Assembly (NCBI GenBank): GCA_044326465.1
Contig: JBIRBD010000001.1
Span: 1 to 41,762, forward strand
DNA: 41,762 nucleotides
Direction: 5' to 3'
Source of the DNA: Chthoniobacterales bacterium
Lineage (GTDB): Bacteria; Verrucomicrobiota; Verrucomicrobiia; Chthoniobacterales; UBA6821
Shown here: one piece after another, positions 3,850 to 38,482 of the stretch
Layout of the letters: every line of letters begins with the position of its first letter
Position numbering within the stretch: position 1 is the stretch's first letter
Program-made: the position numbers and the translations under genes
The notes under the pieces: generated by a model
The model's input: only the letters and a program-made list of their open reading frames with translations
The model's database searches: none
What the model was told of the DNA's origin: nothing

Positions 3850-3885
3850 AAGAAATATTCTTTTAAAATTTGACCTTCATTGGAC

Positions 3886-4102
3886 GTAATTGCTCATCTC
3901 CTTCTGATCAAGAAGAGGAGCAAAAAGTTGTCGGTTGTTAGTTGTTTTTATTCGAAAAATTTATTTTTTAAGAGTCGCATTTTATTAGCCTCTTAGGGCG
4001 ATACTTTTTTTTAGCAGCTAAGAAAAAGTTATTTCTTTACTATCAAGCGAGAACCAATAACCAACAAGCATTGCTTATTTTCAGAAGGAGATGAGCAATT
4101 AC
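3886..4102. mobile_element. MITE family B, copy B1 (217 bp)
   Basis: It has perfect 21-bp terminal inverted repeats, gtaattgctcatctccttctg (3886..3906) and cagaaggagatgagcaattac (4082..4102). It is flanked by the 8-bp direct repeats cattggac (3878..3885) and cgttggac (4103..4110), matching 7/8. It aligns along its whole length to 18880..19091, and there is no ORF. Confidence 0.85.
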
Positions 4103-4153
4103 CGTTGGACAAGCTTTATATACCATTCGTGCGTGCGCCAGCCGCTATGGTTT

Positions 4154-4654
4154 TTATTTTACAATACCAAACTCAGCACGACGATTCTTAGCCCAAGCCG
4201 CATCGTTCTCGGCTGGATCAGCTGGCATTTCTTTGCCAAAACTCACCGTCTGAATTTTATTAGCAGACAAACCTTGTGCAATTAAGGCTTCGCGGACCGC
4301 TAAGGCACGTCTTTCTCCAAGGCTACGGTTGTACTCTTCGGTGCCGCGATCATCGGTGAAGCCTGCTACAATCACGGTTTTGCCAGAGCTTCGAACTCCT
4401 TGCACGACGCTTAGAATTTTGCTGGCTTGATTGGCGCCAACACTGGTGCTATCAAACGCAAAATAAACAGGTGAATATTCTCCACGCTCAACATTAGAAC
4501 CCATGAAGTTTGCGCTTTCCGACCGATCACTCAAGGGCGTTCCACTGACGTAGTCACCATCGACGCCAGCATACTGTTTATTTTTTTTATTCGCACATGC
4601 TGAGATCATCGTTGTCAGAAGGAGGAGAAGAACGAGAGAAAATTTATTTTTCAT
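4154..4654 (-). CDS. pal: Peptidoglycan-associated lipoprotein (OmpA-family)
   Basis: It has a lipoprotein signal with a lipobox (LLLLLTTMISAC) and a C-terminal OmpA-like domain (VAGFTDDRGTEEYNRSLGERRALAVREAL ... NRRAEF). tolB lies immediately upstream on the same strand. Confidence 0.88.
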   Translation of the reverse strand: MKNKFSLVLLLLLTTMISACANKKNKQYAGVDGDYVSGTPLSDRSESANFMGSNVERGEYSPVYFAFDSTSVGANQASKILSVVQGVRSSGKTVIVAGFTDDRGTEEYNRSLGERRALAVREALIAQGLSANKIQTVSFGKEMPADPAENDAAWAKNRRAEFGIVK

Positions 4655-4680
4655 AAAAGTGCATCACTGCTTGCTACAGA

Positions 4681-4711
4681 GAGGGGTTAAAGTTGAGCTG
4701 ATTTTAGTCGC
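4681..4711 (+). repeat. Module D, degenerate copy (D3)
   Basis: gaggggttaaagttgagctgattttagtcgc resembles ttgaggggttgag-tcgcgactaaagtcgc, the reverse complement of 17250..17296, and 23316..23345. It lies 26 nt upstream of the pal start, C-rich in pal sense. Confidence 0.45.
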
Positions 4712-4786
4712 ACAATGTTACATAAAATCTTGAAGTTTTATAGTTCTATTTTTAGCAGCAAAGTAACTTTGATCATTCAACTTGAC

Positions 4787-4957
4787 TTAAACCTAAAAAC
4801 GTGAATCAAAATAAAAATTTTGACGCAATATAGTCGGCCTGAAGCGGTTCGTTCTAAAGCCTCACTAACCATGCAGGTTAGCCACGGCTTCATAACAACC
4901 AGCTTCCAATCCAACTCCTTACGCCAACGTTCTCATTTTCATTCACGTTTTTAGTAA
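4787..4957 (+). repeat. Family A palindromic element, divergent subfamily copy (A4, 171 bp)
   Basis: Its termini, ttaaacctaaaaacgtgaat ... attcacgtttttagtaa, include a 14-bp perfect inverted repeat and are the same as those of A1-A3. It has the same length, a shared gacgcaatat block and an equivalent apical hairpin (ctaacc-atgc-aggttag). Confidence 0.7.
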
Positions 4958-4962
4958 CCACT

Positions 4963-6114
4963 CTAGCGAGACCAGGTAGGCTCTGTGACTTGACTCAGAC
5001 CACTAATGACAGAAATTGATTTTCCATTTTGCGTGTCAAACAGGATGAGGCTCTCTTTGGTACTAAAAATCAAATGCCGCGAGTCAGGACCCCAGACAGG
5101 ATTTTCACCTTGAGCCACAATGTGAGCGGAGCCACTTCCTAAATCAAGTACAGCTACCGAAAAAGCACCTGCTGAGCGGACATTGAAGGCGACACGTTTT
5201 CCATCAGGTGACCAATTAGGTTCTGTAGCATAACTAAATCCTGTTGAAAGGAGTCTGGCTGAGCCACCGGAAGAACTAACGCGATAAAGTTGAGGAGAGC
5301 CATTTTCGTCCGATGAATAAATTATTTCGTCTCCATTGGGTGACCACGTGCCGCATGATGCCGCACCACGTGTGCGCGTGACGCCTTGTACGCCACCACT
5401 CATGCTGACAACATAGAGCTCCGGACGCCCATCTTTACTCATAGTGCAGACTAAGCGCGTGCCATCAGGAGAAAAACGAGGTCCAGAATTAGTCCCTGGA
5501 TATTTTATCAAATGCAAACGCGATCCTGTGGCAATATCGATGAGATAAATATCGGCATAGCCACTTTGATAACCTGTGTAAGCTATTTTTCGGGCATCAG
5601 TGCTAAGTGACGGGGAAACGCTAATGGCATTGTCATGGGTAATTTGACGGCCATTGGATCCATCATAGTCGGCAGTATAAATCTCTTTGCGTCCGCTGCG
5701 TGTGCTGACAAAACCAATCTTGCTCATGGCAATGCCAGGTTTACCGGTTAATGTTTCTACAATGTCGTTACAAAAATGATGTGCCATGCTGCGCGCATCG
5801 CCGGAATAATTTTTTGTAAGTACTATCGAACCTGCGCGATCCACTACTTTGCCCTGTAACATTCCACCGGCGACGACCCCACTAATCACAAACGATGCCT
5901 TGTCGGCAGCCTGTAACGAAAACCAACCTGCCAGTGTAAGATCATTGGAGAGAATTTTGGAAACCGCTGAGCCATCACTGCCGCTAACACCACTCAATGT
6001 TACGTTGAGGGCATCGCTCTTGCGAACCGTGATAGTGGGGGCCTCCGAAGCTTGTAGAAAAACAGAAGGAACAATAAACGCGAAAGCAACAACAAAAAGA
6101 AAGAAATATTTCAT
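4963..6114 (-). CDS. tolB: Tol-Pal system beta-propeller protein TolB
   Basis: It has a signal peptide (MKYFFLFVVAFAFIVPSVFLQASEA), an N-terminal TolB domain and repeated SPDG/WSPDG propeller blades. The track start at 6129 is a TTG 5 codons upstream, and I prefer the ATG at 6112..6114. Confidence 0.88.
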   Translation of the reverse strand: MKYFFLFVVAFAFIVPSVFLQASEAPTITVRKSDALNVTLSGVSGSDGSAVSKILSNDLTLAGWFSLQAADKASFVISGVVAGGMLQGKVVDRAGSIVLTKNYSGDARSMAHHFCNDIVETLTGKPGIAMSKIGFVSTRSGRKEIYTADYDGSNGRQITHDNAISVSPSLSTDARKIAYTGYQSGYADIYLIDIATGSRLHLIKYPGTNSGPRFSPDGTRLVCTMSKDGRPELYVVSMSGGVQGVTRTRGAASCGTWSPNGDEIIYSSDENGSPQLYRVSSSGGSARLLSTGFSYATEPNWSPDGKRVAFNVRSAGAFSVAVLDLGSGSAHIVAQGENPVWGPDSRHLIFSTKESLILFDTQNGKSISVISGLSQVTEPTWSR

Positions 6115-6211
6115 TGCACTATGTTGCAATCAAAGCAGTGACTCTGGCAACCATGATTTATAGATCTGCTGCTCGAGAATAAACAAATTAACGCGATAAG
6201 TAATGACGTTC

Positions 6212-6462: not shown

Positions 6463-7422
6463 TTAAGAAAAACAGGCTTTGCGTTCAGCAAAGCTCCTCG
6501 GATACCGCGGACGAAGTAGCGCCGCGATGATGAATCCCATTCCGATTAAAATTAAAAAGAGTGAGAGAAATTGTCCTCGCGTGAGCATGCCTGTGAGTGG
6601 TGCATCAGGCTCGCGAAAAAATTCTCCTACGATACGAAGTAAAGCATAGGCAATAAAAAAAATGCCTGTGATAATACCATTTGGTAAGCGGCACCGCGTG
6701 CGCAACAACCAGAGTAGTGAAAAGAGAAGCACTCCTTCGAGCGCCGCTTCCAAGAGCTGAGAAGGATAACGTGGTGTTAAAATTGTTGCCAAATAATCGT
6801 GTAACGCGGGAGAAGAGCTGACTCCTTCGATTACGGCATCAACGTTGGAAAATTTCGGATCAATGGCGGCTGTATCTTCCAGCATGCGCAGCGTAAATCC
6901 TGGTGGAAAAAAAACAATCTCTTTAGGAAATTGTATGGCCCACCAAACCGTTGTGGCTCGGCCAAAAAGCTCCCCATTGATAAAATTGGCACAGCGACCT
7001 AGAAAGAGCCCAATCGGAGCAACAACAACGAGGTTATCTCCGAGGTTAAGCCATGAGACATGATGTCGCCACGAATACCAAAGCGTGTAAAGAGCCAGAC
7101 CAATGATGCCACCATGGCTTGCCATGCCACCTTCCCAGACACGGAAAATCAGGAAGGGATTTTGTAAAAATCCATCGAGATCATAAAGCAGCATATAGCC
7201 AAGCCTGCCTCCAAGCACCACGCCAAAGAGAGCTCCCCATGTTATAAAATCAGCGACTTGGTCTGGCGCAAGGTCTGAATAACCACGTTGTGCTAGCTTG
7301 CGATAAAGCAGCGTCCCCACAAGAAACCCTAAAATATAAGCAAGCCCATACCAGCGAATGCCAAAACCATCCCCAAAGCGGATTAGGAACGGACTGAGAT
7401 TGTGAACGTAAAAGGCGAGCAT
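6463..7422 (-). CDS. lgt: Prolipoprotein diacylglyceryl transferase
   Basis: It shows Lgt signatures (GIRWYGLAYILGF, ASHGGIIG, GRCANFINGELFGR) in a polytopic membrane protein. Confidence 0.92.
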   Translation of the reverse strand: MLAFYVHNLSPFLIRFGDGFGIRWYGLAYILGFLVGTLLYRKLAQRGYSDLAPDQVADFITWGALFGVVLGGRLGYMLLYDLDGFLQNPFLIFRVWEGGMASHGGIIGLALYTLWYSWRHHVSWLNLGDNLVVVAPIGLFLGRCANFINGELFGRATTVWWAIQFPKEIVFFPPGFTLRMLEDTAAIDPKFSNVDAVIEGVSSSPALHDYLATILTPRYPSQLLEAALEGVLLFSLLWLLRTRCRLPNGIITGIFFIAYALLRIVGEFFREPDAPLTGMLTRGQFLSLFLILIGMGFIIAALLRPRYPRSFAERKACFS

Positions 7423-7438
7423 AGATGGAAGGTTCTCT

Positions 7439-7473
7439 GTTGTTAGTTGTTGGTTGGTTTTGTTCGAAAATTT
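7439..7473 (+). repeat. Unpaired G/T-rich heptamer array, MITE-B subterminal-like fragment
   Basis: gttgtta gttgttg gttggtt ttgttcgaaaattt matches the B1 interior at 3934..3962 (gttgttagttgtttttattcgaaaaattt). It lies 16 nt from the lgt start codon, where it is C/A-rich in lgt sense, and no TIR is present. Confidence 0.55.
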
Positions 7474-7506
7474 GGGTATAAATTACAGTCTGTATTTTCT
7501 TATTTT

Positions 7507-8157
7507 ATGTTTCAACTCTTTCTCAAAGGTGGCCCTATTATGGGGCCGATTTTACTCATCTCCATCATAGCGCTCACCGTGGTGATCGAGCGAATAATCT
7601 TTCTTCTGCTGGAAGCAAAAAACAGCAACCCAAAAACTGTTAACGCAATGCTGGCAGCTGCGGAACATGACGACTACGAAAAAGCATGGAAGCTTGGCGC
7701 AGCTTCCAAGGATTTCATTGCGCGTGTACTTACGTATGGACTAGCACATCGCGCAACCTCCCTAAGCGAGGCCTTGCTCCAGGCTGCAAACCGCGAACTT
7801 TACCGTTTCAATCGAGGTCTCGCTATCCTTGACACCATCATCACTCTTGCGCCTTTATTGGGACTTCTTGGAACCGTTACCGGAATGATTCATGCTTTTA
7901 GTCTACTCGGAAATAATGAACTTAACGCACCGACAGCCATCACTGGAGGTATTGCAGAAGCCCTTATTGCAACAGCCTTCGGACTCAGTGTTGCCATTGT
8001 TGCGCTGATCCCTTTTAATTATCTTAATAGCCGTTTAGAAAAAGCACGCCTTCAAATCCAAGATGCAGCCTCTTTTCTCGAACTATGCCTGTTGAAGAGG
8101 TTACCCCCCTCAACCTCTCAACCCCTAAACTCTTTCCATGCAGATTCCATCTCTTAA
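7507..8157 (+). CDS. exbB: MotA/TolQ/ExbB proton-channel family protein
   Basis: It has three TM segments and the conserved LAPLLGLLGTVTGMI / GGIAEALIATAFGL core. The start is moved to the ATG at 7507, because the track start at 7447 is a TTG inside the repeat array. The last ~17 codons are array-derived. Confidence 0.85.
   Translation: MFQLFLKGGPIMGPILLISIIALTVVIERIIFLLLEAKNSNPKTVNAMLAAAEHDDYEKAWKLGAASKDFIARVLTYGLAHRATSLSEALLQAANRELYRFNRGLAILDTIITLAPLLGLLGTVTGMIHAFSLLGNNELNAPTAITGGIAEALIATAFGLSVAIVALIPFNYLNSRLEKARLQIQDAASFLELCLLKRLPPSTSQPLNSFHADSIS
8106..8130 (+). repeat. C-rich octamer array (CCCCTCAA CCTCTCAA CCCCTAAA) inside the exbB 3' end
   Basis: It uses the same unit as the arrays at 17250..17296 and 23491..23537. 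It ends 7 nt before the exbD ATG, and 8101..8137 contains no G. Confidence 0.7.
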
Positions 8158-8566
8158 TAGTCGTCGTAAGGCACGCATCGAAATTATCCCGCTAATCGAT
8201 ATTATTTTTTTTCTATTAGCAACCTTTGTCATGGTCTCGCTTTCCATGATTCAAAATCAAGGGATTGCTGTGCATCTGCCTAAAGCCTCCTCCGGATCAA
8301 CACAAGATCGATGCAATGACGTTACAATTACCGTAACAATCGATGGAAGTTATTTTTTTAATCACGAACCAATAACGCATGATCAGCTTTTAGATAAGCT
8401 ACTGGTTGTAAAAAAAACCTCTGTAGAACCACAGGTTTTTATCAATGCCGATACGAAGGCAGACTTTGGTTCTGTCGTCGAAGTTCTCAATGAAGTACGT
8501 AAGCAAGGTATCGAAAAAGTTGCCATTGAGACGAAACCAACTACTGATGTCATGAGTAATAGGTGA
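8138..8566 (+). CDS. exbD: Biopolymer transport protein ExbD/TolR
   Basis: The N-terminus (RRKARIEIIPLIDIIFFLLATFVMV) and a periplasmic ExbD domain are present. It overlaps the exbB end by 20 nt. Confidence 0.87.
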   Translation: MQIPSLNSRRKARIEIIPLIDIIFFLLATFVMVSLSMIQNQGIAVHLPKASSGSTQDRCNDVTITVTIDGSYFFNHEPITHDQLLDKLLVVKKTSVEPQVFINADTKADFGSVVEVLNEVRKQGIEKVAIETKPTTDVMSNR

Positions 8567-8631
8567 TTCAACGATAAATGTCTTCTCCTCATTACTCATT
8601 ACCCATTACTCGGTACTCATTACTCTTCACT
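8552..8631. repeat. Inverted heptamer-array pair spanning the exbD stop and tonB start
   Basis: The left arm atgagtaatagg (8552..8563) abuts the exbD stop codon. The right arm is six tandem heptamers, cattact cattacc cattact cggtact cattact cttcact (8590..8631), which encode TonB residues 5-18. Confidence 0.75.
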
Positions 8632-9255
8632 GCGCTTGCTTTTTTCCTCGCGGTGATTTTCCATGGCGCCCTCTTTCTTCTTGGGCGCTCCTTTTATAAG
8701 CCTCCAGAGTATGCCGTAAGAGAAGGCAATTCGAATCTAGAAGTAGGGCTTGTTGATGCGGCGTCTATGGGAAAAAATTCTTCTGCAACCATTGATGAGA
8801 AGGTAACAACTGCCAAAGTAAAACAAGCAGCAACCCTTGTTTCTGAAAAAAAACTTGAACTATCTTCCCGCACGCATCCAGGAGAAGCGAAAAAGATTTC
8901 TTCTGTTGCCTCAGAAAAAAAAATCGCTGGGCTTTTGAAGTCAGCCCCTAGCTATCTTCGTAACCCGCAACCAACCTATCCAGAAGCAGAGAGAATAAGC
9001 GGTCACGAGGGAGTTGTGTTGCTTCGTGTTGTAGTTACTAAGGAGGGAAAAATTCTAAAAGCTACCATTGAACACTCTTCAGGATATGACGCGCTCGATA
9101 AACGCGCGCTTGAAACAGTGTTAGATTCGTGGAGTTTTCGCCCTGCGCTATTAAATCAGGAGCCAGTTAAGACAGAAATTTTTATTCCAATTCATTTTTC
9201 TCTTAACTCTAAAAACTCAAATTCTAATAAAAAAGCCGGGCTCCTTAACCAATAA
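8578..9255 (+). CDS. tonB: Energy transducer TonB-family protein (in TolA-like position)
   Basis: It has an N-terminal TM anchor (LLFTALAFFLAVIFHGALFLL), a low-complexity linker and a C-terminal TonB_C domain (YPEAERISGHEGVVLLRVVVTKEGKILKATIEHSSGYDALDKRALETVLDSWSFRPA). It follows exbB-exbD. Confidence 0.78.
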   Translation: MSSPHYSLPITRYSLLFTALAFFLAVIFHGALFLLGRSFYKPPEYAVREGNSNLEVGLVDAASMGKNSSATIDEKVTTAKVKQAATLVSEKKLELSSRTHPGEAKKISSVASEKKIAGLLKSAPSYLRNPQPTYPEAERISGHEGVVLLRVVVTKEGKILKATIEHSSGYDALDKRALETVLDSWSFRPALLNQEPVKTEIFIPIHFSLNSKNSNSNKKAGLLNQ

Positions 9256-9260
9256 AAAAA

Positions 9261-9291
9261 GCAATCCTCTCTTACATAAAAAGAGGATTGC
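9261..9291. terminator. Bidirectional rho-independent terminator
   Basis: The stem is gcaatcctct / agaggattgc (10 bp) with an 11-nt loop. An A7 run precedes it and aatattttt follows, giving T-runs on both strands. It lies between convergent tonB and the 34-aa gene. Confidence 0.7.
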
Positions 9292-9316
9292 AATATTTTT
9301 GAAAAATAGAAAAGCC

Positions 9317-9421
9317 CTACGACTTGTAGCGCAACCGCTTCTTATGGCGATTAAGCTTCATGCGTTTACGGCGTTTATGTTTGGCTATTTTAGCTTTACG
9401 TTTCTTTTTAATGGATCCCAT
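9317..9421 (-). CDS. 34-aa highly basic peptide (AURKAIP1/COX24-domain-like small protein)
   Basis: My own translation of the minus strand gives MGSIKKKRKAKIAKHKRRKRMKLNRHKKRLRYKS, with the ATG at 9419..9421 and the TAG at 9317..9319. It is too short for the ORF track, and the overlapping + ORF 9299..9541 looks spurious. The family assignment is from memory of similar MGS(I/L)KKKRK..KHKRRKR peptides. Confidence 0.6.
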   Translation of the reverse strand: MGSIKKKRKAKIAKHKRRKRMKLNRHKKRLRYKS

Positions 9422-9594
9422 GGGACTTCTTTTCTGCTGACGTTAATAAATTTTGATAATCTTTTGCAAGATGAACTTACACTTTTGCGGAGAGAAGGCA
9501 ATGTCTCAAGAAGATTCTTTATTTTTTTATATCTATGGTAATCTATAACGTGGCTTGCCAAGGAACGGGATCCTGTCTTTTATCTCCTTTTTAT

Positions 9595-10302
9595 ATGCGT
9601 GAACTTATTGAAAAACTTCTTATTCTCCAACACTGTGATCAAAAAAATCGCGATGTTCTTCATTCGCTACAACAGCTTCCTCAGGAGAAATCAACCTGTG
9701 AGAGCGATCTTAAAAAATCTGATTATCAGTTAGAGCTCGCTCGCGCACGCCAGCGAGAGAATGAAATAGAACTCAAAAAACTCGAAGTCGATATTCTTTC
9801 AAAACAAGAACAGATTTTTCGTTATCGTCGTCAACAGCTTGAGACCCGAAAAAATGATGAGTATGCGGCCTTGAATCATGAGATTGCAGTTGGAGAAAAA
9901 AATATTTCTGCAATTGAAGATGCCCAGCTCGTCTTGATGGAGTTAGCGGAGACATTGTATGCTCAATTGCAGTCGGCTCAACAAGCACATCAGCTAGAGC
10001 AAACTCGAATCAATAATGTTTTAGGCTCGTTGGACCTGCGTCGTGCCAATTTGTTCGCGCGACAAGAAGAACTTGCAAAAGAGCGCTTGCGGCTTATTGA
10101 TGGCATTGACGAAGATCTTTTGGAGCGCTACGGCCGACTTTTTAAAAGCAAAAATGGAACAGCGATTGTTCCTGTAGAGCATCACACTTGCACTGGTTGC
10201 CATATGCAAGTTCCCATGCAAATAATCTTGGCAGCAAAGGCTGCTAAAGAATTAGTTCTCTGTTTGCAATGTGGAAGAGTTCTCTATTGCGAAGAAGAAT
10301 AA
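9595..10302 (+). CDS. Coiled-coil protein with C-terminal C4 zinc ribbon (COG1579/DUF164-like)
   Basis: A long heptad-rich region is followed by CTGCHMQVP...LCLQCGRVLY (CxxC-x21-CxxC). The start is moved to the ATG at 9595 (MRELIEKLL). Confidence 0.7.
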   Translation: MRELIEKLLILQHCDQKNRDVLHSLQQLPQEKSTCESDLKKSDYQLELARARQRENEIELKKLEVDILSKQEQIFRYRRQQLETRKNDEYAALNHEIAVGEKNISAIEDAQLVLMELAETLYAQLQSAQQAHQLEQTRINNVLGSLDLRRANLFARQEELAKERLRLIDGIDEDLLERYGRLFKSKNGTAIVPVEHHTCTGCHMQVPMQIILAAKAAKELVLCLQCGRVLYCEEE

Positions 10303-10319: not shown

Positions 10320-11087
<768 letters not shown>

Positions 11088-11112
11088 AACTCCTAACCTT
11101 CTAAACTAACAC

Positions 11113-11673: not shown

Positions 11674-11688
11674 GTCTGGCTTGTGGAA

Positions 11689-11858
11689 TTAACCTAAAAA
11701 CGGCAATGGATCGTTATAAATTAGCGCAATATGCTCAGCCTCAAAATGATTTTTCAACCGGCTCACGTACCTTCCAGGTATGCTTCGCCGTTTTAAAAAT
11801 CACTTTTAGACCAAGCCTTTACGCTAATTTATTAACTCCCATCACCGTTTTTAGTTAA
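11689..11858 (+). repeat. Family A palindromic element, copy A1 (170 bp)
   Basis: Its termini are ttaacctaaaaacggcaatgg ... ccatcaccgtttttagttaa. The left half pairs with the right half along the whole element (for example gttataaattagcg / cgctaatttattaac), with the apical hairpin tacct-tcc-aggta. It is ~97% identical to 41634..41762. Confidence 0.85.
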
Positions 11859-17115: not shown

Positions 17116-17160
17116 GTTGAGGGGTTGAGGGGGTGCTGCCAAACCTCTCTCTCCCTCAAC
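17116..17160. repeat. GTTGAGGG / CCCTCAAC octamer hairpin
   Basis: gttgaggggttgaggggg (17116..17133) faces cctctctctccctcaac (17144..17160) across a 10-nt loop. The G-rich arm is 5'. Confidence 0.65.
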
Positions 17161-17172
17161 TTCGCAATTAAA

Positions 17173-17296
17173 GGGGTTTGAGGGGAAAAAAGTTGAGGGG
17201 GTGAGCATATTACGTTAATTTGTCACGATCCATTGCCGTTTTTAGATAGCCCCTCAACCTCTCAACAGCGACTTTAGTCGCGACTCAACCCCTCAA
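17173..17296. repeat. Composite: G-rich octamer arm + inverted family-A left-end fragment + module D (D2)
   Basis: 17173..17201 is ggggtttgaggggaaaaaagttgaggggg. The reverse complement of 17202..17245 equals ctaaaaacggcaatggatcgtgacaaattaacgtaatatgctca, a family A left end truncated after atatgctca. 17250..17296 is cccctcaacctctcaac-agcgactttagtcgc-gactcaacccctcaa, which is module D in reverse. It ends 8 nt before the purH ATG. Confidence 0.7.
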
Positions 17297-18837: not shown

Positions 18838-18879
18838 AATATCTCTGAAAGCAGTGTTAAGGTTATTCATCCTCTGGTT

Positions 18880-19091
18880 GTAATTGCTCATCTCCTTCTG
18901 GCGAAGAAGACGAGCAAGAAGTTGTCGGTTGTCGGTTGTTCGAAAGATTTTTTTTTTAAAAATCCTATTTTATCAGCCTCTTAGGGCAACGCTTCTTTTT
19001 TAGCAGCTAAGAAAAAGTTATTTCTTCACTACCAACCGAGAACCGAGAACCAATAACCATTGCTTATCTCCAGAAGGAAATGAGCAATTAC
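18880..19091. mobile_element. MITE family B, copy B2 (212 bp)
   Basis: The TIRs are gtaattgctcatctccttctg (18880..18900) and cagaaggaaatgagcaattac (19071..19091), matching 20/21. A perfect 8-bp target-site duplication ctctggtt sits at 18872..18879 and 19092..19099. The element fills the purH/aspS convergent spacer and ends 8 nt from the aspS stop codon. Confidence 0.88.
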
Positions 19092-19099
19092 CTCTGGTT

Positions 19100-20872: not shown

Positions 20873-20896
20873 AAAATCTAGTTTGGAGTTTAGCCC

Positions 20897-20997
20897 CAAT
20901 GCCGTCAACTTAAGGCGTTAAGTGACGGCAAGGGGTTCAGGTGACAGGGTTATAGGCTACAGGTAAGTAGGCCTACGGCAAAAAGAAAAAAATTTAT
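20897..20997 (+). repeat. Family C element, copy C2 (distal end missing)
   Basis: The sequence begins caatgccgtcaacttaag-gcg-ttaagtgacggcaagggg, in which gccgtcaacttaaggcgttaagtgacggc (20901..20929) folds as a 12-bp stem with a 1-nt bulge. A heptamer run follows (ggttcag gtgacag ggttata ggctaca ggtaagt aggccta), then cggcaaaaagaaaaaaatttat. It is collinear with C1 and C3 up to that point. Confidence 0.65.
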
Positions 20998-22530: not shown

Positions 22531-23304
22531 ATGGCCAAGAAAAATATTGTTTCTACAAAGAAGGTTTCTAAGGCACCTCAAAAAGCTAAGGCACCTCAAA
22601 AAGTTGTCGCAAAGAAATCTGTGAAAGCACCCGCTAAAAAAATCATTGCCGAAAAATCCGTGAAAGCACCCGCTAAAAAAATCATAGCGGAAAAGTCTGC
22701 TGTTAAAATTTCTCCCGTAAAAAAATCTGTTCCCGTTAAAAAAACAGTTTCTAGCAAACGTTCTGTAAAGCCAGTTGTTCAAGAAAGCCGCGGTGTTTTG
22801 CGGCAGACTTTTGTTAGAGAGCCGAAGATAAAGAGAGGTCCTGAACTTACTCCCTTTTTTGAAAAACAGCGTGTACGTCTCTTGCTTCTTAAGGATACAT
22901 TGCTTGATTCCATGAAAGGAGTAGCTCGTGATAACCTTCATGCAGGAAGTGATGCCTCGGCTTTTGGTATGCACCAAGCTGATGCAGGGAGTGATGCTTA
23001 TGATCGCGATTTTGCTCTAAGTATTTTGTCCCAAGAGCAAAATTCACTTTATGAGATTGACGAAGCGCTCCGTCGCATCGATGATGGGACCTATGGAGTT
23101 TGCGAAATTTCTAATAAGCCAATCTCCCGTGCTCGACTTGAGGCTCGCCCTTTTACTCGCTATACTGTAGAGTGCCAGGCTGAGCTCGAAAAAAGGCAAC
23201 ACTTTTCAGGGGTGCGTTTAGCTGTAAGCTCCCTCTTTGGTCTCACAGAAGAAGAAACTGAAAATGAGGACGACGATAACATCATCGAAAACACAAAAGA
23301 TTAA
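22531..23304 (+). CDS. DksA/TraR-family protein with lysine-rich histone-H1-like N-terminal repeats
   Basis: The C-terminal part matches the DksA zinc-finger region (IDDGTYGVCEISNKPISRARLEARPFTRYTVECQAELE) but has only 2 of the 4 Cys (CxxS...TxxC). The N-terminal ~85 aa are K/A/P/V repeats. Confidence 0.75.
   Translation: MAKKNIVSTKKVSKAPQKAKAPQKVVAKKSVKAPAKKIIAEKSVKAPAKKIIAEKSAVKISPVKKSVPVKKTVSSKRSVKPVVQESRGVLRQTFVREPKIKRGPELTPFFEKQRVRLLLLKDTLLDSMKGVARDNLHAGSDASAFGMHQADAGSDAYDRDFALSILSQEQNSLYEIDEALRRIDDGTYGVCEISNKPISRARLEARPFTRYTVECQAELEKRQHFSGVRLAVSSLFGLTEEETENEDDDNIIENTKD
22570..22695 (+). repeat. In-frame coding tandem repeats (2 x 18 bp, 2 x 39 bp)
   Basis: aaggcacctcaaaaagct / aaggcacctcaaaaagtt lie at 22570..22605. 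tctgtgaaagcacccgctaaaaaaatcattgccgaaaaa / tccgtgaaagcacccgctaaaaaaatcatagcggaaaag lie at 22618..22695. They encode KAPQKA x2 and SVKAPAKKIIAEK x2. Confidence 0.85.
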
Positions 23305-23315
23305 TCATTAAGGAA

Positions 23316-23362
23316 GTTGAGGAGTTGAGTTGCGACTACGTCGCTGTTGAGAAGTTGAGGAG
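23316..23362 (+). repeat. Module D, copy D1 (G-rich arm after the dksA-like stop)
   Basis: gttgaggagttgag-ttgcgactacgtcgc-tgttgagaagttgaggag aligns at ~85% with the reverse complement of 17250..17296. The central hairpin is gcgac-tac-gtcgc. Confidence 0.75.
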
Positions 23363-23490
23363 TTTGGAAGCGCCGCTATTGCGGTAAAATAAGAGTTTAT
23401 TTAACAGACAAAAAAATTTAAAAATTTATTCATTCAAACAGTCTTAAATAAAGACATTCAACTTCTCAAAAAATATTTACTTTAAATTTT

Positions 23491-23551
23491 TCAACCCTCT
23501 CAACCTCTCACATTTAACCCTCTCAACATCTAAACCCGCCGCGATAGCGGC
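23491..23551 (+). repeat. C-rich octamer array plus GC hairpin upstream of rpmG
   Basis: tcaaccct ctcaacct ctcacatt taaccctc tcaacatc taaaccc (23491..23537) contains no G and is the complement type of the D1 arm. It is followed by gccgc-gata-gcggc (23538..23551), which mirrors ccgc-tatt-gcgg at 23373..23384. Confidence 0.7.
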
Positions 23552-23736: not shown

Positions 23737-23981
23737 TGCTCACTCAACCTAAGACCGCAAAACGTCGTTCTAACTTTCGTCGTGCTAACCGCTCGATGCC
23801 ACATCGTCGTATCGACATTGCTACAGAAGCTATCGATTTTAAAAATCCTGATCTGCTTAAGAAATTCACTACAGAGAATGGTAAAATTCTCTCTCGTCGT
23901 ACGACTGGCGTAGCAGCTCATCTTCATCGCAAGATTACACGGGCTATTAAGCGCTCTCGTGCAGCATTGATAATGAAGTAG
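23736..23981 (+). CDS. rpsR: 30S ribosomal protein S18
   Basis: [46 protein letters not shown] is a canonical S18 core. Confidence 0.9.
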
Positions 23982-23985
23982 TACT

Positions 23986-24169
23986 ACCCGTTCAGAAGAA
24001 CGGATCAGTGAAGAGTAAAGAGTGAAGGGTAGAGAGTATTTTTAGTCTGAAATTAGACGATCATTTGAAATCTACTCTCATACAATCCCTCTTTAGAAAA
24101 CAATTAATAGAAAATTTTGTTTTCACACGATTTACTCTTTATCCTTCACAACCGTTCTGCTGAACGGTT
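23986..24169. repeat. Composite palindrome filling the rpsR/gltB convergent spacer
   Basis: The outer inverted repeat is acccgttcagaagaacgg (23986..24003) and ccgttctgctgaacggtt (24152..24169), and each half is also a local hairpin ccgttc-N4-gaacgg. The inner heptamer arrays are gtgaaga gtaaaga gtgaagg gtagaga gta (24008..24038) and tactctttatccttcac (24133..24149). Confidence 0.75.
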
Positions 24170-24173
24170 ATTG

Positions 24174-28751: not shown

Positions 28752-28948
28752 AAAAAACGAGACTATAGCCAAAAGCCGAAGAATTAGGACAAAAAGATGC
28801 CAAATTTTGAGATTGCAAAGAACCTTATGCTCTTGTTTGCAAGGCATCAAGCTTGGGTGAAGTTTTCTCGTAGCGTGAGAGCCTTCCTGGGTTCTCTCAG
28901 TTTATGATTGATCCCACTTCCTTCATCATCGCATACTGTCTTGCTGCT

Positions 28949-29153: not shown

Positions 29154-31769
29154 ATGTACCACCAAAACGAAAAAGTAGAGCTCATCGATGTTTCTGAGGA
29201 AATGTCGCGGTCCTTCCTCGACTACTCCATGTCGGTTATTATTTCGCGGGCACTTCCTGATGCGCGCGATGGTCTCAAACCCTCCCAACGACGTATTCTC
29301 TACGCCATGCATGAGCTCGGTGTCATGCCGACACGCAAACATCTTAAATGCGCAAAAATCGTCGGTGAGACGATGGGTAATTATCATCCTCACGGCGATC
29401 AAGCAATTTATCCAACGCTTGTTCACATGGCACAGCGTTGGGCGATGCGTGAGACATTGATCGAAGGTCAAGGAAATTTCGGTTCTGTAGAAGGTGATCC
29501 TCCAGCCTCAATGCGTTATACGGAAGCTCGTCTGAGGCCGCTTGGCGCGTTGCTCATGGAAGACATGGAACATGACACAGTGAACTTTGTTCCAAACTAT
29601 GATGATACACGAGAAGAGCCAACCGTCTTTCCTGCGGCATTCCCAAATCTTCTTGTTAATGGTGGTACTGGTATTGCTGTTGGTATGGCAACAAACATGC
29701 CGCCTCATAATTTGAGTGAAGCGATCGATGCAATTTGTGCGCAAATTGATCAGCCCGAAATCACGCTCGATGAGATCATGCACTTTATGAAAGGGCCTGA
29801 CTTTCCAACGGGTTGTCAACTCTGTGGCGTCACTGGTATTCGTCAATATTTTGAGACGGGACGCGGTTCAGTGAAGGTTCGTGGTCGTGCTGGTATTGAA
29901 GAAATCAAAGGCGGTCGTGAGCAAATCGTCATCACCGAAATTCCGTACAACGTCAATCGCGCAACACTAGTTGAAAAAATTGCAGGACTTGTTAACGAAA
30001 AAACAATTCCAGAAATCAGCGCGATTCGCGATGAATCGGATGAAAATACGCGCGTCGTTGTGGAACTGAAACGGGATGCGATTCCAAAAGTCGTCATCAA
30101 TAATCTTTACAAGTATACCGCGCTGGAATCCTCCTTTTCAGTAACAATGCTGGCGATTGATCGTGGTCGTCCAAAACTTCTCTCGCTCAAAGAAGCAATT
30201 GCATGCTTCATTGAACATCGTCGTGAAGTAATCTTGCGCCGCACCCGTTTTCTTTTGAATCAGGCAGAAGCGCGGGCCGAGAAACTCGAAGGTTATCTCA
30301 TTGCACTGGCTAACATCGATCAATTCATTAAGATCATTCGTGATTCCGTCAACCGCGAGGAAGCAAAAGTAAAATTACTTGCGTTTGAATTTACGAAAAA
30401 ACAAGTCGAGCATTTTGGAATTTTTCTGCGTCATGCAGAGCGTTTGACCGACGGCAGCTACTTGATGAGTGAGGCGCAAGTCGATGCAATTTTAGAACTA
30501 CGCCTCTATCAATTAACCGGTCTCGAGCGTGATAAAATCATCGCGGAATATACGGAGTTGTTAAAAGTTATTGCCGACCTCATCGATATTTTAAATAGTG
30601 AGGAGCGGGTGCTTAGCCTGATGAAATCAGAGCTTTTGGCAATCAAAGCAAAACATGGTCGTCCACGGTTAACCGAAATTATTTCTCAGGAAGGAGAAAT
30701 TTCTATTGAAGATCTTATTGCTAATGAAGGCTCGATCATTACTATCACGCATAAGGGATTTATTAAACGGACGGCCGTAAGCTCCTATCGCGCGCAGAGG
30801 CGCGGTGGCAAAGGCGTAATTGGCATGACAACGCGCGAGGCTTCTAGTGAAACAGATGAAGATGATTTTGTAGAACATCTTTTCACCGTGAGTACCCACG
30901 ACTATTTAGTGTTCTTTACCAAGAGTGGGCGCTGTTACGTTGAGCGTGTTTATGAAATTCCAGAAATGAGCCGTACCTCAAAAGGCCGCTCCATAGCCAA
31001 TATCCTTAATCTACAGCCAGGTGAGAAAATTGCAGCGACATTGCGCATTCAATCCAAAAACAGCGGTGGCGTTGGTGCTGTCGATACGACGTGGGATCCG
31101 AATTTTCACATCTTCTTTGCAACTCGTAGCGGTATTGTTAAAAAATCGAACCTTGGTGATTTTGCAAACATTCGCAAAGGAGGGATCATTGCCATTCAAA
31201 TTGAAGAAGGAGATGAGCTCATTAACGCTGTCCTCACTAACGGTCACGATGAAGTGGTGCTCGTCACCAAAGAAGGGCAAAGCATTCGTTTTAGTGAAGA
31301 AGAATTGCGCGATCAAGGACGCAACACCGTTGGAGTCTGGGGTATCCGTCCTGCAAAAGGAGATACGCTTGTCGCTATAGCCATCGTTTCCAATGATGCC
31401 ATGTTGCTTGTTGCCGGCGAAAATGGTATCGGCAAGCGGACAGTATTTGATGATTATCGGACGCAATCACGGGGAGGCAAAGGAATTATCACCATGAAGA
31501 CTGGTGATAAAACAGGTCTTGTCGTTGGTGCCTTGGCGGTTACTAATCATGACGAACTGATGCTAATTACAACCGGCGGCCAAATGGTCCGAACGCGTGT
31601 TGCCGAAATTCGCGAAACAGGCCGTAATACCATGGGCGTAAAATTAATTAATCTTCACGCTAGTGAAAAACTTCAGGCAATTGCTAGGGTTGTAAGTGAA
31701 ATAGAAGATAGGAAATCGGAGATAGAAGATAAGAGATCGGAGATAGAAGATAGGAGTATTGCTTCGTAA
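29154..31769 (+). CDS. gyrA: DNA gyrase subunit A
   Basis: [45 protein letters not shown], the active-site RYTEARL and C-terminal beta-pinwheel repeats are present. The last 21 codons are a 3 x 21-bp repeat ([21 protein letters not shown]). Confidence 0.96.
31698..31760 (+). repeat. 3 x 21-bp tandem repeat (heptamer-based, G/A-rich) forming the gyrA C-terminal tail
   Basis: The three units are gaaatagaagataggaaatcg, gagatagaagataagagatcg and gagatagaagataggagtatt. Each is 3 x 7 nt, so the array stays in frame. Confidence 0.85.
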
Positions 31770-31898
31770 GACGATTACAATCTCATCATTTATCAACAAT
31801 CTGTTGCTTTATCATTTATCCTAATTTTTATTTGTGATGAGTATACATCAGTCGCATTTGATTTTTAGGTTTTGTTAGTATTAGATTTCGTAAAAAAA

Positions 31899-31923
31899 CT
31901 CCTATCTTCCATCTTCTATCTCC
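31899..31923 (+). repeat. C/T-rich array complementary to the gyrA tail repeat, 6 nt upstream of the secA ATG
   Basis: The reverse complement of ctcctatcttccatcttctatctcc is ggagatagaagatggaagataggag. It gives 13 contiguous bp plus 9 bp of complementarity to 31739..31756. 31891..31929 contains no G. Confidence 0.8.
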
Positions 31924-31929
31924 TAATTA

Positions 31930-38443: not shown

Positions 38444-38452
38444 AACAGTGAA

Positions 38453-38482
38453 GGCTACAGCCTACAGGCTACAGGTTACAGG
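38453..38482 (+). repeat. Unpaired heptamer array GGCTACA GCCTACA GGCTACA GGTTACA GG
   Basis: These are four tandem heptamers 9 nt from the hldD start codon, where they read cctgtaa cctgtag cctgtag gctgtag in hldD sense. They are related to the heptamer runs inside family C (ggctaca ggtaagt). Confidence 0.7.

What the first reader, a model, noticed from the sequence alone, without database searches (positions are those of the whole stretch)
8101..8631. Repeat arrays are embedded in the coding ends of exbB, exbD and tonB
Seen: exbB ends with the octamer array CCCCTCAA CCTCTCAA CCCCTAAA (8106-8130), translated as ...PPSTSQPLNSF. This is the same unit found upstream of purH and rpmG. The array ends 7 nt before the exbD ATG (8138), and 8101-8137 has no G. 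The last exbD codons (atg agt aat agg, immediately before the tga stop) are the short G-rich arm. Six CATTACT-type heptamers (8590-8631) form the C-rich arm and encode TonB residues 5-18, giving the near-repeat HYSLPIT / RYSLLFT that runs into the TM anchor. So three consecutive genes of one operon have termini made from array DNA. Inference: arrays either insert at or expand across gene boundaries and are tolerated in disordered termini, or the gene-boundary location is itself the selected feature (translation re-initiation without an SD).
Basis: partly seen in the sequence, partly recalled or inferred. Interest (0 to 1): 0.62.

Follow-up and report, generated by a model that had tools for sequence, protein, structure and literature searches.

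The report
Paired repeat arms straddling exbB-exbD-tonB junctions
The ends of three neighbouring genes in an uncultured freshwater bacterium are partly written in short repeated DNA that also fills the gaps between its other genes. This DNA comes as complementary G-rich and C-rich halves that can pair across each gene junction and probably tune how the downstream gene is translated; similar repeats are already known in cyanobacteria, Beggiatoa and Xanthomonas.

Summary
The exbB ORF reads through a three-unit octamer array (8106-8129). It continues 27 nt further and stops at 8155-8157, 20 nt inside exbD. The last exbD codons (8549-8567) are a 12-14 nt complement of the six-unit heptamer array (8588-8631) that encodes TonB residues 5-18.

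These are not local oddities. The contig comes from a Verrucomicrobiota-like freshwater organism with few Shine-Dalgarno (SD) sites. Most of its intergenic regions are hairpin-capable pairs: a G-rich arm after the stop codon and a C-rich, G-free arm before the next start. Both unit families recur elsewhere in the genome.

The nearest relatives carry different but internally complementary arms at the same two junctions. In one of them (L088) the arms again lie in the exbD tail and the TonB N-terminus, with unit changes matched on both arms.

In thermodynamic models, each start region opens only when the upstream arm is held single-stranded. I read this as repeat-built junction hairpins that couple or gate SD-independent translation and are tolerated in unconstrained protein tails. 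The function is inferred, not shown. The closest known elements are the heptamer repeats of cyanobacteria, Beggiatoa and Xanthomonas, and REP elements that overlap ORF ends.

The parts
7507..8157 (+). exbB (MotA/ExbB family). Its last 18 codons (LPPSTSQPLNSFHADSIS) lie beyond the point where the closest relatives stop.
   Evidence: Pfam PF01618, E = 8e-31. ORF and stop codon. Tail comparison. Similarity to solved TolQ/ExbB structures ends at about residue 186-199.
8094..8103 (+). Short G-rich arm GTTGAAGAGG inside the conserved LLKR codons of exbB. It pairs with CCTCTCAAC in the array.
   Evidence: Fold of 8080-8145: -11.5 kcal/mol, z = -2.3. Holding 8088-8104 single-stranded lowers the opening energy of the exbD start region from 8.4 to 0.2 kcal/mol.
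8101..8139 (+). G-free run of 39 nt holding the octamer array CCCCTCAA CCTCTCAA CCCCTAAA (8106-8129). It is at once the exbB tail coding sequence and the SD-less leader of exbD.
   Evidence: It is one of 7 start codons with a G-free run of 20 nt or more abutting them.
8138..8566 (+). exbD. The start MQIPS... is conserved in all close relatives. The tail after IETKP (TTDVMSNR) is variable.
   Evidence: Pfam PF02472, E = 9e-28. Sequences of relatives.
8549..8567 (+). G-rich arm GTCATGAGTAATAGGTGAT, covering the last exbD codons and the TGA stop. It is complementary to the tonB heptamer array and contains the SD-like AGGTGA.
   Evidence: Inverted repeats I1 and I3. Hairpin -13.9 kcal/mol, z = -2.5. 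Masking it lowers the opening energy of the tonB start from 11.2 to 2.5 kcal/mol.
8578..9255 (+). tonB (TonB_C domain, one N-terminal transmembrane helix with the conserved His).
   Evidence: Pfam PF03544, E = 2.5e-20. Alignment A2.
8588..8631 (+). C-rich arm of six CATTACT-type heptamers. It encodes TonB residues 5-18 and is open in all three sense frames.
   Evidence: TRF. Orthologous array in L088. Copies of 33-42 nt on other contigs of equal depth.
9176..9234 (+). G-free, low-complexity run of 59 nt. It encodes most of a TonB C-terminal tail (NSKNSNSNKKAGLLNQ) that is absent from relatives.
17116..17296 (.). Same octamer family in the divergent purD/purH intergenic region. GTTGAGGG-type arms lie at 17116-17135 and 17170-17205. 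CCCTCAAC-type arms lie at 17139-17163 and 17250-17296.
   Evidence: The intergenic region folds with z = -4.9.
23307..23537 (+). Same octamer family between the dksA-like gene and rpmG. The G arm (23307-23370) follows the stop codon. The C arm (23491-23537) precedes the rpmG start.
   Evidence: Base counts (G, C) are (32, 14) in the first half and (8, 37) in the second half.
24007..24153 (.). Heptamer family of the tonB array in the convergent rpsR/gltB spacer. The G arm AGTGAAG/AGTAAAG lies at 24007-24038 and the C arm at 24130-24153.
   Evidence: The region folds with z = -6.7. This G arm pairs best with the tonB C arm (-36.5 kcal/mol).
31701..31929 (+). Second case of the same architecture. 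The G arm (ATAGGAG-type, 8 units, 31701-31756) encodes the gyrA C-terminal tail EIEDRKS x3. The C arm (CTCCTAT-type, 31891-31929) abuts the secA ATG.
   Evidence: (z = -3.4).

Best explanation
What it is (shown).
- The three 'embedded arrays' are local members of a lineage-wide class of dispersed short tandem repeats with 7-9 nt units.
- These repeats sit at gene boundaries as complementary pairs. A G-rich arm follows or overlaps the upstream stop codon. A C-rich, G-free arm abuts or overlaps the downstream start codon.
- Where genes are tightly packed, as in exbB-exbD-tonB, the arms fall inside the coding ends.
- They are tolerated there for two reasons. G-free repeats can only produce TAA stops. 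The heptamer array is open in all three frames, and the octamer array in two. The regions hit are unconserved tails: the ExbB C-tail, the ExbD C-tail and the TonB tail before the membrane anchor.

How it most likely works (inferred).
- This genome has few SD sites. The G-free arm gives an unstructured landing site for the ribosome.
- Pairing with the upstream G arm closes that site on a polycistronic RNA.
- A ribosome finishing the upstream gene melts the G arm and opens the downstream start.
- ExbD and TonB synthesis would thus be coupled to, and set below, the synthesis of the upstream subunit.
- In relatives with long spacers the same hairpins lie wholly between genes. There they may act mainly as intercistronic stability or attenuation elements.

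How the arms stay matched (inferred). Either by selection for pairing or by conversion between the arms.
For: Genome context.
- G makes up 12.6% of positions -30..-1 before 29 start codons, against 21.9% overall (110 G against 192 +/- 12.6 expected; 0 of 5000 random sets reach this). SD-like motifs occur at only 5 of 29 starts.
- Seven of 29 starts abut a G-free run of 20 nt or more (expected 0.34; P = 4e-8).
- Intergenic regions fold with a mean z of -2.8, and 12 of 22 fall below -3. Matched coding controls average -0.1.
- G > C in the first half and C > G in the second half holds in most intergenic regions, whatever the gene orientation.

Dispersal.
- The octamer array shares an identical 17-mer with the purH leader.
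- The heptamer array recurs on at least four other contigs at the same depth. On at least two of these an ATG follows within 20 nt, where the sequence beyond the array was readable.
- The octamer family is also present in relative L087.

Orthologous junctions.
- L088 exbB-exbD hairpin: -46.1 kcal/mol, z = -7.4.
- L088 exbD-end/tonB-start hairpin: -46.9 kcal/mol, z = -4.3. Its G arm (GCGAGTA x4) spans the exbD stop. Its C arm lies in the probable TonB N-terminal codons.
- L004 exbB-exbD hairpin: -44.1 kcal/mol, z = -7.0.
- L001 exbD-tonB spacer: a 22-bp stem, z = -4.7.
- The window and L088 tonB arrays align unit by unit (CATTACT against CGCCACT). The G arms changed to match (AGTAATG-type against AGTAGCG-type).
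- Each G arm pairs best with its own C arm in 7 of 11 junctions. All four exceptions pair best with a C arm of their own unit family.
- The feature is clade-specific. Across 141 more distant exbD loci the 40 nt upstream average 10 G, and only 1 locus has a G-free run of 25 nt or more.

Accessibility model.
- Opening energy of -20..+15 falls from 8.4 to 0.2 kcal/mol for exbD, and from 11.2 to 2.5 for tonB, when only the upstream arm is held open. Control masks have no effect.
- Relatives go the same way at 4 of 5 junctions.

Literature.
- The same positional rule is described for heptamer repeats in Xanthomonas and Nostoc (PMC4692102).
- Heptamers abutting SD-less start codons and sitting at ORF peripheries are described in Beggiatoaceae (PMC4679880).
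- Some Verrucomicrobia are SD-scarce (PMC10783764).
- Low structure around start codons matters for non-SD genes (PMC5397173).
Against: - There are no expression data of any kind. No RNA run holds the stretch.
- The window's own two hairpins are weak (z = -2.3 and -2.5), and inverted repeats of 12-14 nt are common.
- Sense RNA is not consistently more stable than antisense RNA (9 of 14 regions favour antisense). There is therefore no G-U signature of selection at the RNA level. Palindromy at the DNA level, or conversion between arms, could explain the matched arms without any function.
- In L088 and L004 the exbB-exbD hairpin lies wholly in the spacer. In L088 it ends more than 20 nt before the ATG and masking it has no effect on the start. 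Coupling therefore cannot be the general role.
- L003 has no array at all at exbB-exbD (10-nt spacer).
- Start codons were called crudely, from ORFs and homology only.
Confidence: 0.55

Rival explanations
1. The arrays are selfish or conversion-driven repeat DNA with no function. Palindromic repeat elements of the MITE/REP kind insert or spread at gene boundaries. They persist in coding ends only because those tails are unconstrained. The arms stay complementary through the copying mechanism, not through selection.
For: - Long dispersed intergenic repeats occur in the same window: 3881-4108 and 18875-19097 are 82-88% identical; 11676-11854, 28936-29114 and 41639-41762 form a second family.
- Identical 17-42 nt array copies occur at unrelated loci.
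- Unit sequences turn over fast between relatives.
- There is no sense-strand advantage in folding.
- One close relative lacks the exbB-exbD array.
- REPs are known to overlap or enter ORFs without an evident role (PMC3733652).
Against: - The 'G arm first' polarity holds in most intergenic regions.
- G-free runs are strongly enriched exactly at start codons (P = 4e-8). This includes short spacers with no partner arm, such as pyrH-frr. Random insertion does not predict that.
- Hairpins are kept at the same two junctions in 3-4 lineages although the sequence has been replaced.
Confidence: 0.25
2. The junction hairpins act on the transcript rather than on translation. They would be partial terminators, RNase processing sites or 3'-end protectors that set ExbB > ExbD > TonB mRNA levels, as REP/BIME and other intercistronic stem-loops do.
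For: - In L088 and L004 the exbB-exbD hairpins are strong (-46 and -44 kcal/mol), lie wholly between the genes, and in L004 are followed by T6.
- The same arm pairs fill convergent spacers where no start codon exists: 18838-19099 (z = -6.4) and 23981-24173 (z = -6.7).
- ExbB, ExbD and TonB are needed in decreasing amounts (established knowledge of the complex).
Against: - In the window itself both hairpins are weak and lack T-runs. No terminator-like site was found at either junction.
- Both arms there lie in translated sequence, where ribosomes would keep melting them.
Confidence: 0.15
3. The tonB heptamer array is a contingency locus. A gain or loss of one 7-nt unit shifts the reading frame and switches TonB on and off (phase variation).
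For: The unit length is not a multiple of 3, and the array lies in the first 18 codons. This is the classic layout of phase-variable genes (established knowledge; SSR phase variation is reviewed in PMC12721329).
Against: - The units are imperfect; only 3 of 6 are exact CATTACT.
- There is no length difference between the window and two other assemblies that differ from it by 2 SNPs.
- The same arrays occur before housekeeping genes such as rpmG, purH and secA.
- Only contigs could be examined, not raw reads, so rare variants would be missed.
Confidence: 0.03
4. This is ordinary coding sequence. The ExbB tail is the diverged ancestral C-terminal tail, and its repeat look is coincidental low complexity.
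For: - Thirty-three more distant ExbB carry a 16-residue tail, KRxPxCAFQTLETxxA, in the same place.
- The window tail shares P, Q, L and A with it in register (p = 0.012 at fixed register).
- The distance from the LLK codons to the exbD ATG is similar in both.
Against: - p rises to 0.06 when register shifts are allowed.
- The four closest relatives have no tail.
- The DNA carries three tandem octamers and a 17-mer identical to the purH leader.
- A period of 8 or 7 nt cannot arise from selection on the peptide.
- This reading does not address the tonB array, which has exact copies elsewhere in the genome.
Confidence: 0.02

Closest known systems
TAACTGA heptamer direct repeats of marine Beggiatoaceae, some Cyanobacteria and some Bacteroidetes (MacGregor 2015, PMC4679880)
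   Same: - Tandem 7-nt units dispersed over many intergenic loci.
- They end within a few nucleotides of start codons that lack an SD.
- A minority overlap ORF ends or encode peripheral peptides. The authors note that insertions survive mainly at protein peripheries.
- A role in translation was proposed, involving S1, Csp or CsrA.
   Different: - One fixed unit genome-wide, against several unit families here (CYCTCAAC, CATTACT, CTCCTAT, CTTCAAC and others).
- The repeats are direct only, with a single inverted case reported. Here nearly every array has a complementary partner arm.
- The forward TAACTGA unit carries stops in all three frames. The units here are largely stop-free.
G-rich GGGNATC heptamer repeats of Xanthomonas and Nostoc (Rehm et al. 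2015, PMC4692102), and the cyanobacterial STRR heptamers (from my own knowledge)
   Same: - The positional rule is the same. [quoted passage not shown]
- They are dispersed, variable in unit number, and mostly transcribed.
   Different: - Those repeats were interpreted as G-quadruplex formers with a preference for four units. Most G arms here (AGTAATG, ATAGGAG, AGTGAAG) have no G-tracts.
- They were not described as complementary pairs or as spanning cistron junctions.
- They occur in a different phylum.
REP/BIME/REPIN elements and Rickettsia palindromic elements (REP survey: PMC3733652; RPE from my own knowledge)
   Same: - Dispersed hairpin-forming intergenic repeats, mostly between co-directional and convergent genes.
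- They are often transcribed, sometimes supply stop codons, and sometimes lie inside ORFs, where they add peptides to otherwise conserved proteins.
   Different: - REPs are single 20-40 nt palindromes with a GTAG or CGTC tag, mobilised by RAYT transposases.
- The arms here are tandem arrays of 7-9 nt units, and loops between arms run from about 13 nt to 150 nt or more.
- No tag is present in the exb arrays, and no RAYT gene lies in the window.
- RPEs are 100-150 nt and insert in-frame in mid-protein.
Translational coupling by start-site sequestration (classical cases such as the MS2 coat-replicase junction and ribosomal-protein operons; from my own knowledge)
   Same: The downstream start region is paired with the terminal codons of the upstream gene, and the model predicts it opens when that segment is held single-stranded.
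   Different: - Those pairings are unique sequences, not copies of dispersed repeat families.
- Here the evidence is thermodynamic modelling only.

Membership tests
Dispersed short-tandem-repeat (heptamer/STRR-type) elements at gene boundaries | Head-to-tail copies of a 6-9 nt unit | tested here: met
   Three octamers lie at 8106-8129. The heptamer array at 8588-8625 has period 7 and 5.4 copies.
Dispersed short-tandem-repeat (heptamer/STRR-type) elements at gene boundaries | The same unit recurs at many unlinked loci of the genome, mostly outside genes | tested here: met
   The octamer family occurs at three loci in the 41.7 kb window. The heptamer family occurs at 24007-24038 and on at least four other contigs of equal depth. 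A genome-wide count was not possible because no complete genome is available.
Dispersed short-tandem-repeat (heptamer/STRR-type) elements at gene boundaries | Fixed strand and position relative to start and stop codons | tested here: met
   The C-rich form lies in sense just before start codons and the G-rich form just after stop codons.
Dispersed short-tandem-repeat (heptamer/STRR-type) elements at gene boundaries | The downstream genes lack a canonical SD | tested here: met
   exbD and the other array-led genes have no SD-like motif. Only 5 of 29 starts have one.
G-quadruplex-forming heptamer repeats (GGGNATC type) | Four or more G-tracts of at least 3 G in the G-rich arm | tested here: not met
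   The exb arms GTTGAAGAGG and GTCATGAGTAATAGGTGAT have no GGG tract. Only the purD/purH arms carry GGGG tracts.
REP/REPIN (RAYT-mobilised) | A 20-40 nt imperfect palindrome with a terminal GTAG or CGTC tag | tested here: not met
   The exb arrays are not self-palindromic and carry no tag. GTAG-containing repeats exist elsewhere in the window (38452-38482) but belong to a different family.
REP/REPIN (RAYT-mobilised) | A cognate RAYT transposase gene in the genome | not testable with these tools
   None lies among the window's genes. The rest of the genome is not available.
Intrinsic terminator / attenuator | A G+C-rich stem-loop followed directly by a T-run | tested here: not met
   No terminator-like site lies at 8090-8140 or 8545-8635. 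The L004 orthologous hairpin is followed by T6.
Translational coupling by start-site sequestration | The downstream start region is paired with upstream coding sequence and is freed when that sequence is unpaired | tested here: inconclusive
   In the model the opening energy falls from 8.4 to 0.2 kcal/mol (exbD) and from 11.2 to 2.5 (tonB), with controls unchanged. The hairpins are weak and there are no experimental data.
Translational coupling by start-site sequestration | Downstream translation depends on upstream translation | not testable with these tools
   This needs fusions or ribosome profiling. No RNA runs hold the stretch.
Phase-variable contingency locus | Unit-number polymorphism within or between populations | tested here: inconclusive
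   There is no length difference among the window and two other assemblies. Only contigs were available, and these drop rare variants.
Rfam RNA families | A match to a curated covariance model | tested here: not met
   Only tRNA-Thr matches at gathering score. Within 7300-9600 the only matches at E <= 1 are two chance-level hits far below their gathering scores.

The most novel reading that the evidence does not exclude
This verrucomicrobial lineage may use a general, repeat-built translation grammar. G-free tandem-repeat leaders would replace the SD as ribosome landing sites. Each would be clamped by a co-evolving complementary G-rich arm placed at the end of the upstream gene. A cistron would then be translated only when the upstream ORF is being translated, or when the RNA starts from a promoter lying between the arms. 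The clamp would be so constrained that it overwrites protein termini (ExbB, ExbD, TonB, GyrA).
Probability: 0.2. Interest if true: 0.7.

Novelty: new variant of a known kind. Interest (0 to 1): 0.5.

Why it matters
Heptamer and octamer repeats at gene boundaries have been catalogued for decades in cyanobacteria and later in Beggiatoa and Xanthomonas, without an accepted function.

This lineage offers a cleaner handle for three reasons.
- The repeats come as complementary pairs.
- The pairs bridge cistron junctions of a well-understood three-gene operon with fixed subunit stoichiometry.
- Two species carry orthologous arms with matched unit changes.

That makes a concrete hypothesis directly testable with arm and compensatory mutations: start-site clamping and coupling in an organism with few SD sites.

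The case also shows how non-coding repeat DNA can become the N- or C-terminal peptide of conserved proteins. It carries a warning for annotation too. In L088 the gene caller placed the tonB start 99 nt too far downstream, apparently to avoid the array.

Tried and rejected
- Closer relatives. One scan each of GTDB species genomes and JGI metagenome contigs with ExbD found nothing closer than 61% identity. I used those loci only as an outgroup control.
- Close relatives actually used. Only four or five short ENA/Logan contigs are close enough.
- RNA evidence. No RNA run holds the window.
- Known RNA families. None matched.
- Promoter and terminator scan of 7300-9600. Counts were at shuffle level and no site fell at the junctions.
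- RNA-level selection. I compared sense with antisense folding; the results were mixed and inconclusive.
- Count of G-free runs of 24 nt or more over the whole window. It was barely above shuffles (33 against 25.7). The signal lies in where the runs sit, not in how many there are.
- Protein-level repeat. I rejected this for HYSLPIT/RYSLLFT, because the period is 7 nt and exact DNA copies occur in non-coding leaders elsewhere.
- Assembly error. I rejected this for the exbB tail.
- A tonB start downstream of 8631. I rejected this because it would cut the conserved transmembrane segment.
- Complementarity of the C-rich units to 16S rRNA. I considered it but could not test it, because no rRNA gene of this organism is available.
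- Laying contigs on the octamer region to find more copies. The array is too short for the aligner, so nothing was found.
Full report
**1. What is in the sequence**

The window is a 41.7 kb metagenome contig with 44% G+C.
- Named ExbB relatives are Chthoniobacter, Chthoniobacterales and Terrimicrobiaceae MAGs at 63-68% identity. The organism is therefore an uncultured member of Verrucomicrobiota.
- The only public runs that hold the stretch nearly whole are two freshwater metagenomes.

The three genes were identified with Pfam.

| Gene | Coordinates | Pfam family | E-value |
|---|---|---|---|
| exbB | 7507-8157 | MotA_ExbB | 8e-31 |
| exbD | 8138-8566 | ExbD | 9e-28 |
| tonB | 8578-9255 | TonB_C | 2.5e-20 |

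- CCCCTCAA CCTCTCAA CCCCTAAA lies at 8106-8129.
- 8101-8139 has no G.
- The period-7 array lies at 8588-8631. It encodes TonB residues 5-18.

There are two corrections.
- The exbB ORF does not end with the array. It runs 27 nt further to TAA 8155-8157 and overlaps exbD by 20 nt.
- The exbD 'arm' is only a 12-14 nt complement of the heptamer array.

ATG 8578 is the only possible tonB start.
- An in-frame TAA directly precedes it.
- The next in-frame start codon (GTG, codon 26) would cut the AFFLAV..H membrane segment that relatives conserve.

Two other assemblies of the same organism differ from the window by two substitutions and no indel over 5.3 kb. The unusual ORF ends are therefore not assembly errors.

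**2. The arrays belong to dispersed families**

- The octamer with up to 1 mismatch is nearly twice as frequent as in shuffles (48 against 25.9 +/- 4.8). It clusters in the purD/purH and dksA-like/rpmG spacers.
- The 17-mer CCCCTCAACCTCTCAAC is identical at 8106 and 17250.
- Stretches of 33-42 nt of the tonB array occur on at least four other contigs with the same depth as the window's contig, in both runs. On at least two of these an ATG follows within 20 nt, where the sequence beyond the array was readable.
- Its complementary form (AGTGAAG/AGTAAAG) lies at 24007-24038.
- The octamer family is also present in a relative with 80% ExbB identity (L087).
- Periods of 7 and 8 nt exclude an origin by selection on a repeated peptide.

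**3. The genome-wide pattern**

- Upstream of 29 start codons, G is 12.6% against 21.9% overall (0 of 5000 random sets are as low). SD-like motifs are seen at about 5 starts.
- Seven starts abut a G-free run of 20 nt or more, against 0.34 expected (P = 4e-8).
- Most spacers have G > C in their first half and C > G in their second half, whatever the orientation of the flanking genes. In other words, they are G-rich after a stop and C-rich before a start, each in the sense of the adjacent gene.
- The spacers are strongly structured (mean z = -2.8; 12 of 22 below -3). Coding controls average -0.1.
- The units of the two arms are complementary within a spacer but differ between spacers:
  - GTTGAGG / CCTCAAC
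  - ATAGGAG / CTCCTAT
  - AGTGAAG / CTTCACT
  - GTTGTCG / CCGAGAAC
- A second case of arms inside coding ends is gyrA. Its C-terminal EIEDRKS x3 tail is encoded by a G arm that pairs with the C arm abutting the secA ATG (z = -3.4).
- TonB also has an extra C-terminal tail, encoded by a 59-nt G-free run.

**4. Orthologous junctions**

Only a handful of close relatives exist, all on short contigs.

ExbB.
- The four closest homologues stop right after LLKKQ(G) or LLKQR, so they lack the window's tail.
- Their exbB-exbD spacers are as follows.

| Relative | Spacer | Array or hairpin |
|---|---|---|
| L003 | 10 nt | no array |
| L001 | 62 nt | TTCATCCCT x3; a 10-bp stem formed with the last exbB codons |
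| L004 | 118 nt | hairpin -44.1 kcal/mol, z = -7.0, followed by T6 |
| L088 | 121 nt | hairpin -46.1 kcal/mol, z = -7.4 |

ExbD-tonB junction.
- L001 has a 22-bp long-range stem that ends about 10 nt before the ATG (z = -4.7).
- L088 repeats the window's layout on a larger scale.
  - A G arm of four GCGAGTA units spans the exbD stop codon.
  - A C arm of ACTCGCC units lies just after an in-frame ATGATG at 1460. This must be the true tonB start, because the called start at 1559 truncates the membrane helix.
  - The two arms pair at -46.9 kcal/mol (z = -4.3).
- MAFFT aligns the window and L088 arrays unit by unit directly after the start codons: CTCATTACTCATTACCCATTACTCGGTAC against CTCGTTACTCGCCACTCGCCACTCGCTAC.
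- The unit changed from CATTACT to CGCCACT. The partner arm changed from AGTAATG-type to AGTAGCG-type. Both arms therefore moved together.
- In a duplex-energy matrix of 11 junctions, each G arm pairs best with its own C arm in 7 cases. All four exceptions pair best with a C arm of their own unit family.

Outgroup. The 141 more distant exbD loci show no G depletion upstream of exbD. The feature is therefore specific to this small clade.

**5. Are the termini lineage-specific extensions?**

Only in part.
- The ExbB tail is absent from the closest relatives. However, 33 more distant ExbB carry a 16-residue tail (KRxPxCAFQTLETxxA) in the same place and of similar length.
- The window's tail shares P, Q, L and A with it in register (p = 0.012 at fixed register; 0.06 with shifts).
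- I cannot exclude that the array remodelled an ancestral tail rather than creating a new one.
- Similarity to solved TolQ/ExbB structures ends near residue 186-199 of 216, so the tail lies outside the conserved fold.
- ExbD tails after IETK(P) differ in all five lineages.
- TonB's N-tail has ordinary length. Its sequence is shared only with L088, where it is also array-coded (SL..TR.SL).

**6. How it may work**

- Start regions in this contig are easier to open than coding controls (median 8.6 against 13.0 kcal/mol; P = 2e-6). The G-free leaders are the most open, at 1.7-4 kcal/mol.
- exbD (8.4) and tonB (11.2) are exceptions. In the model this is entirely due to pairing with the upstream arm.
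  - Holding 8088-8104 single-stranded drops the exbD value to 0.2 kcal/mol.
  - Holding 8545-8567 single-stranded drops the tonB value to 2.5 kcal/mol.
  - Masks of equal length further upstream do nothing.
- Four of five junctions in relatives behave the same way.
- A ribosome finishing the upstream gene would do exactly this unmasking. In the window, the exbB ribosome even passes over the exbD ATG and terminates 17 nt downstream of it.
- This fits translational coupling in an operon whose products are needed in decreasing amounts.

These steps are inference.
- There are no RNA data.
- The window's hairpins are weak.
- Sense RNA is not systematically more stable than antisense RNA.
- In L088 and L004 the exbB-exbD hairpins are purely intergenic. 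There an effect on mRNA stability or attenuation is the more natural reading.
- Non-functional, conversion-maintained palindromic repeats remain a serious rival. Long dispersed spacer repeats in the same window support it.

**7. Comparison with what is known**

- Rehm et al. describe the same positional rule for GGGNATC heptamers in Xanthomonas and Nostoc (PMC4692102).
- MacGregor describes TAACTGA heptamers that abut SD-less starts, overlap ORF ends and encode peripheral peptides, and proposes a translational role (PMC4679880).
- REPs are known to supply stop codons and to sit inside ORFs (PMC3733652).
- Some Verrucomicrobia are SD-scarce (PMC10783764).
- Low structure around start codons is characteristic of non-SD genes (PMC5397173).

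The following points differ from those precedents:
- the phylum;
- the use of several unit families;
- the systematic pairing of complementary arms;
- arms that straddle a cistron junction with both halves in coding sequence, conserved between two species with matched changes.

I therefore file this as a new variant of a known kind. It is not a REP (no tag; the arrays are not self-palindromic). It is not a quadruplex repeat (no G-tracts in the exb arms). It is not a terminator.

**8. Verdict**

- Interest is moderate. The phenomenon has precedents, but this operon makes a long-standing question about such repeats experimentally tractable.

Noticed in passing
window 31685-31929: The gyrA C-terminal tail ([20 protein letters not shown]) is encoded by eight ATAGGAG-type heptamers. 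These pair with a CTCCTAT-type array that abuts the secA start codon (z = -3.4). The architecture matches exbD/tonB.
   Followed up: partly
window 9176-9234: A 59-nt G-free, low-complexity run encodes most of a TonB C-terminal tail (NSKNSNSNKKAGLLNQ). The four closest TonB homologues lack this tail.
   Followed up: partly
window 3881-4108 and 18875-19097: A palindromic intergenic element of about 230 nt is present twice, with segments 82-88% identical. It contains GTTGTCG / AACCGAG heptamer arms and a GCTCATCTCCTTC...GAAGAAGACGAGC stem-loop. A fragment of it also lies in the lgt-exbB spacer (7429-7451). It looks like a MITE.
   Followed up: no
window 11676-11854, 28936-29114, 41639-41762: A structured element of about 180 nt is present three times (81-98% identity), upstream of a DUF4174 gene and of gyrA. 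The spacer folds with z = -6.1 and has no Rfam match. It could be a repeated leader, a promoter module or a small RNA.
   Followed up: no
window 11080-11112, 31893-31905, 40940-40960 (minus strand): The motif AAAACTCCTAWC recurs 20-33 nt upstream of the frr, secA and secDF start codons. It contains the anti-SD-like core CTCCT rather than an SD.
   Followed up: no
window 9317-9421 (minus strand): An uncalled 34-codon gene encodes a very basic peptide (MGSIKKKRKAKIAKHKRRKRMKLNRHKKRLRYKS). It has a weak COX24_C/AURKAIP1-type match (E = 1.3e-4) and is probably the small ribosomal protein bS22. A 13-bp hairpin with a T-run (9261-9291) follows it.
   Followed up: partly
window 22568-22694: The dksA/traR-type zinc-finger protein (22531-23304) has an N-terminal lysine-rich region built from 18-nt (x2, identical) and 39-nt (x2) tandem repeats.
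   Followed up: no
window 38452-38482; 1-28 and 220-247; 20894-20935 and 41463-41504: Further dispersed spacer repeats occur. GTAGCCT/AGGCTAC heptamers (with a REP-like GTAG tag) lie before the epimerase gene. CCCCTTGCCGTCACTTAA-type repeats are present in several copies.
   Followed up: no
L088 1460-1561: The database gene call for tonB in this relative starts at 1559, inside the membrane helix. The in-frame ATGATG at 1460, just before the repeat array, is the likely true start. Repeat arrays seem to mislead start-codon prediction.
   Followed up: partly
L001 7070-7370: The exbD-tonB spacer of this relative folds far better as antisense RNA (-120 kcal/mol) than as sense RNA (-79 kcal/mol). 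This hints at a structured element or gene on the opposite strand.
   Followed up: no
window 4154-6129 and 7507-9255: Genes like tolB (PD40 repeats) and pal (OmpA family) lie on the opposite strand. Only tRNA-Thr and lgt separate them from exbB-exbD-tonB. The triplet could therefore serve a Tol-like role as well. In relatives it follows a TonB-dependent receptor gene.
   Followed up: no
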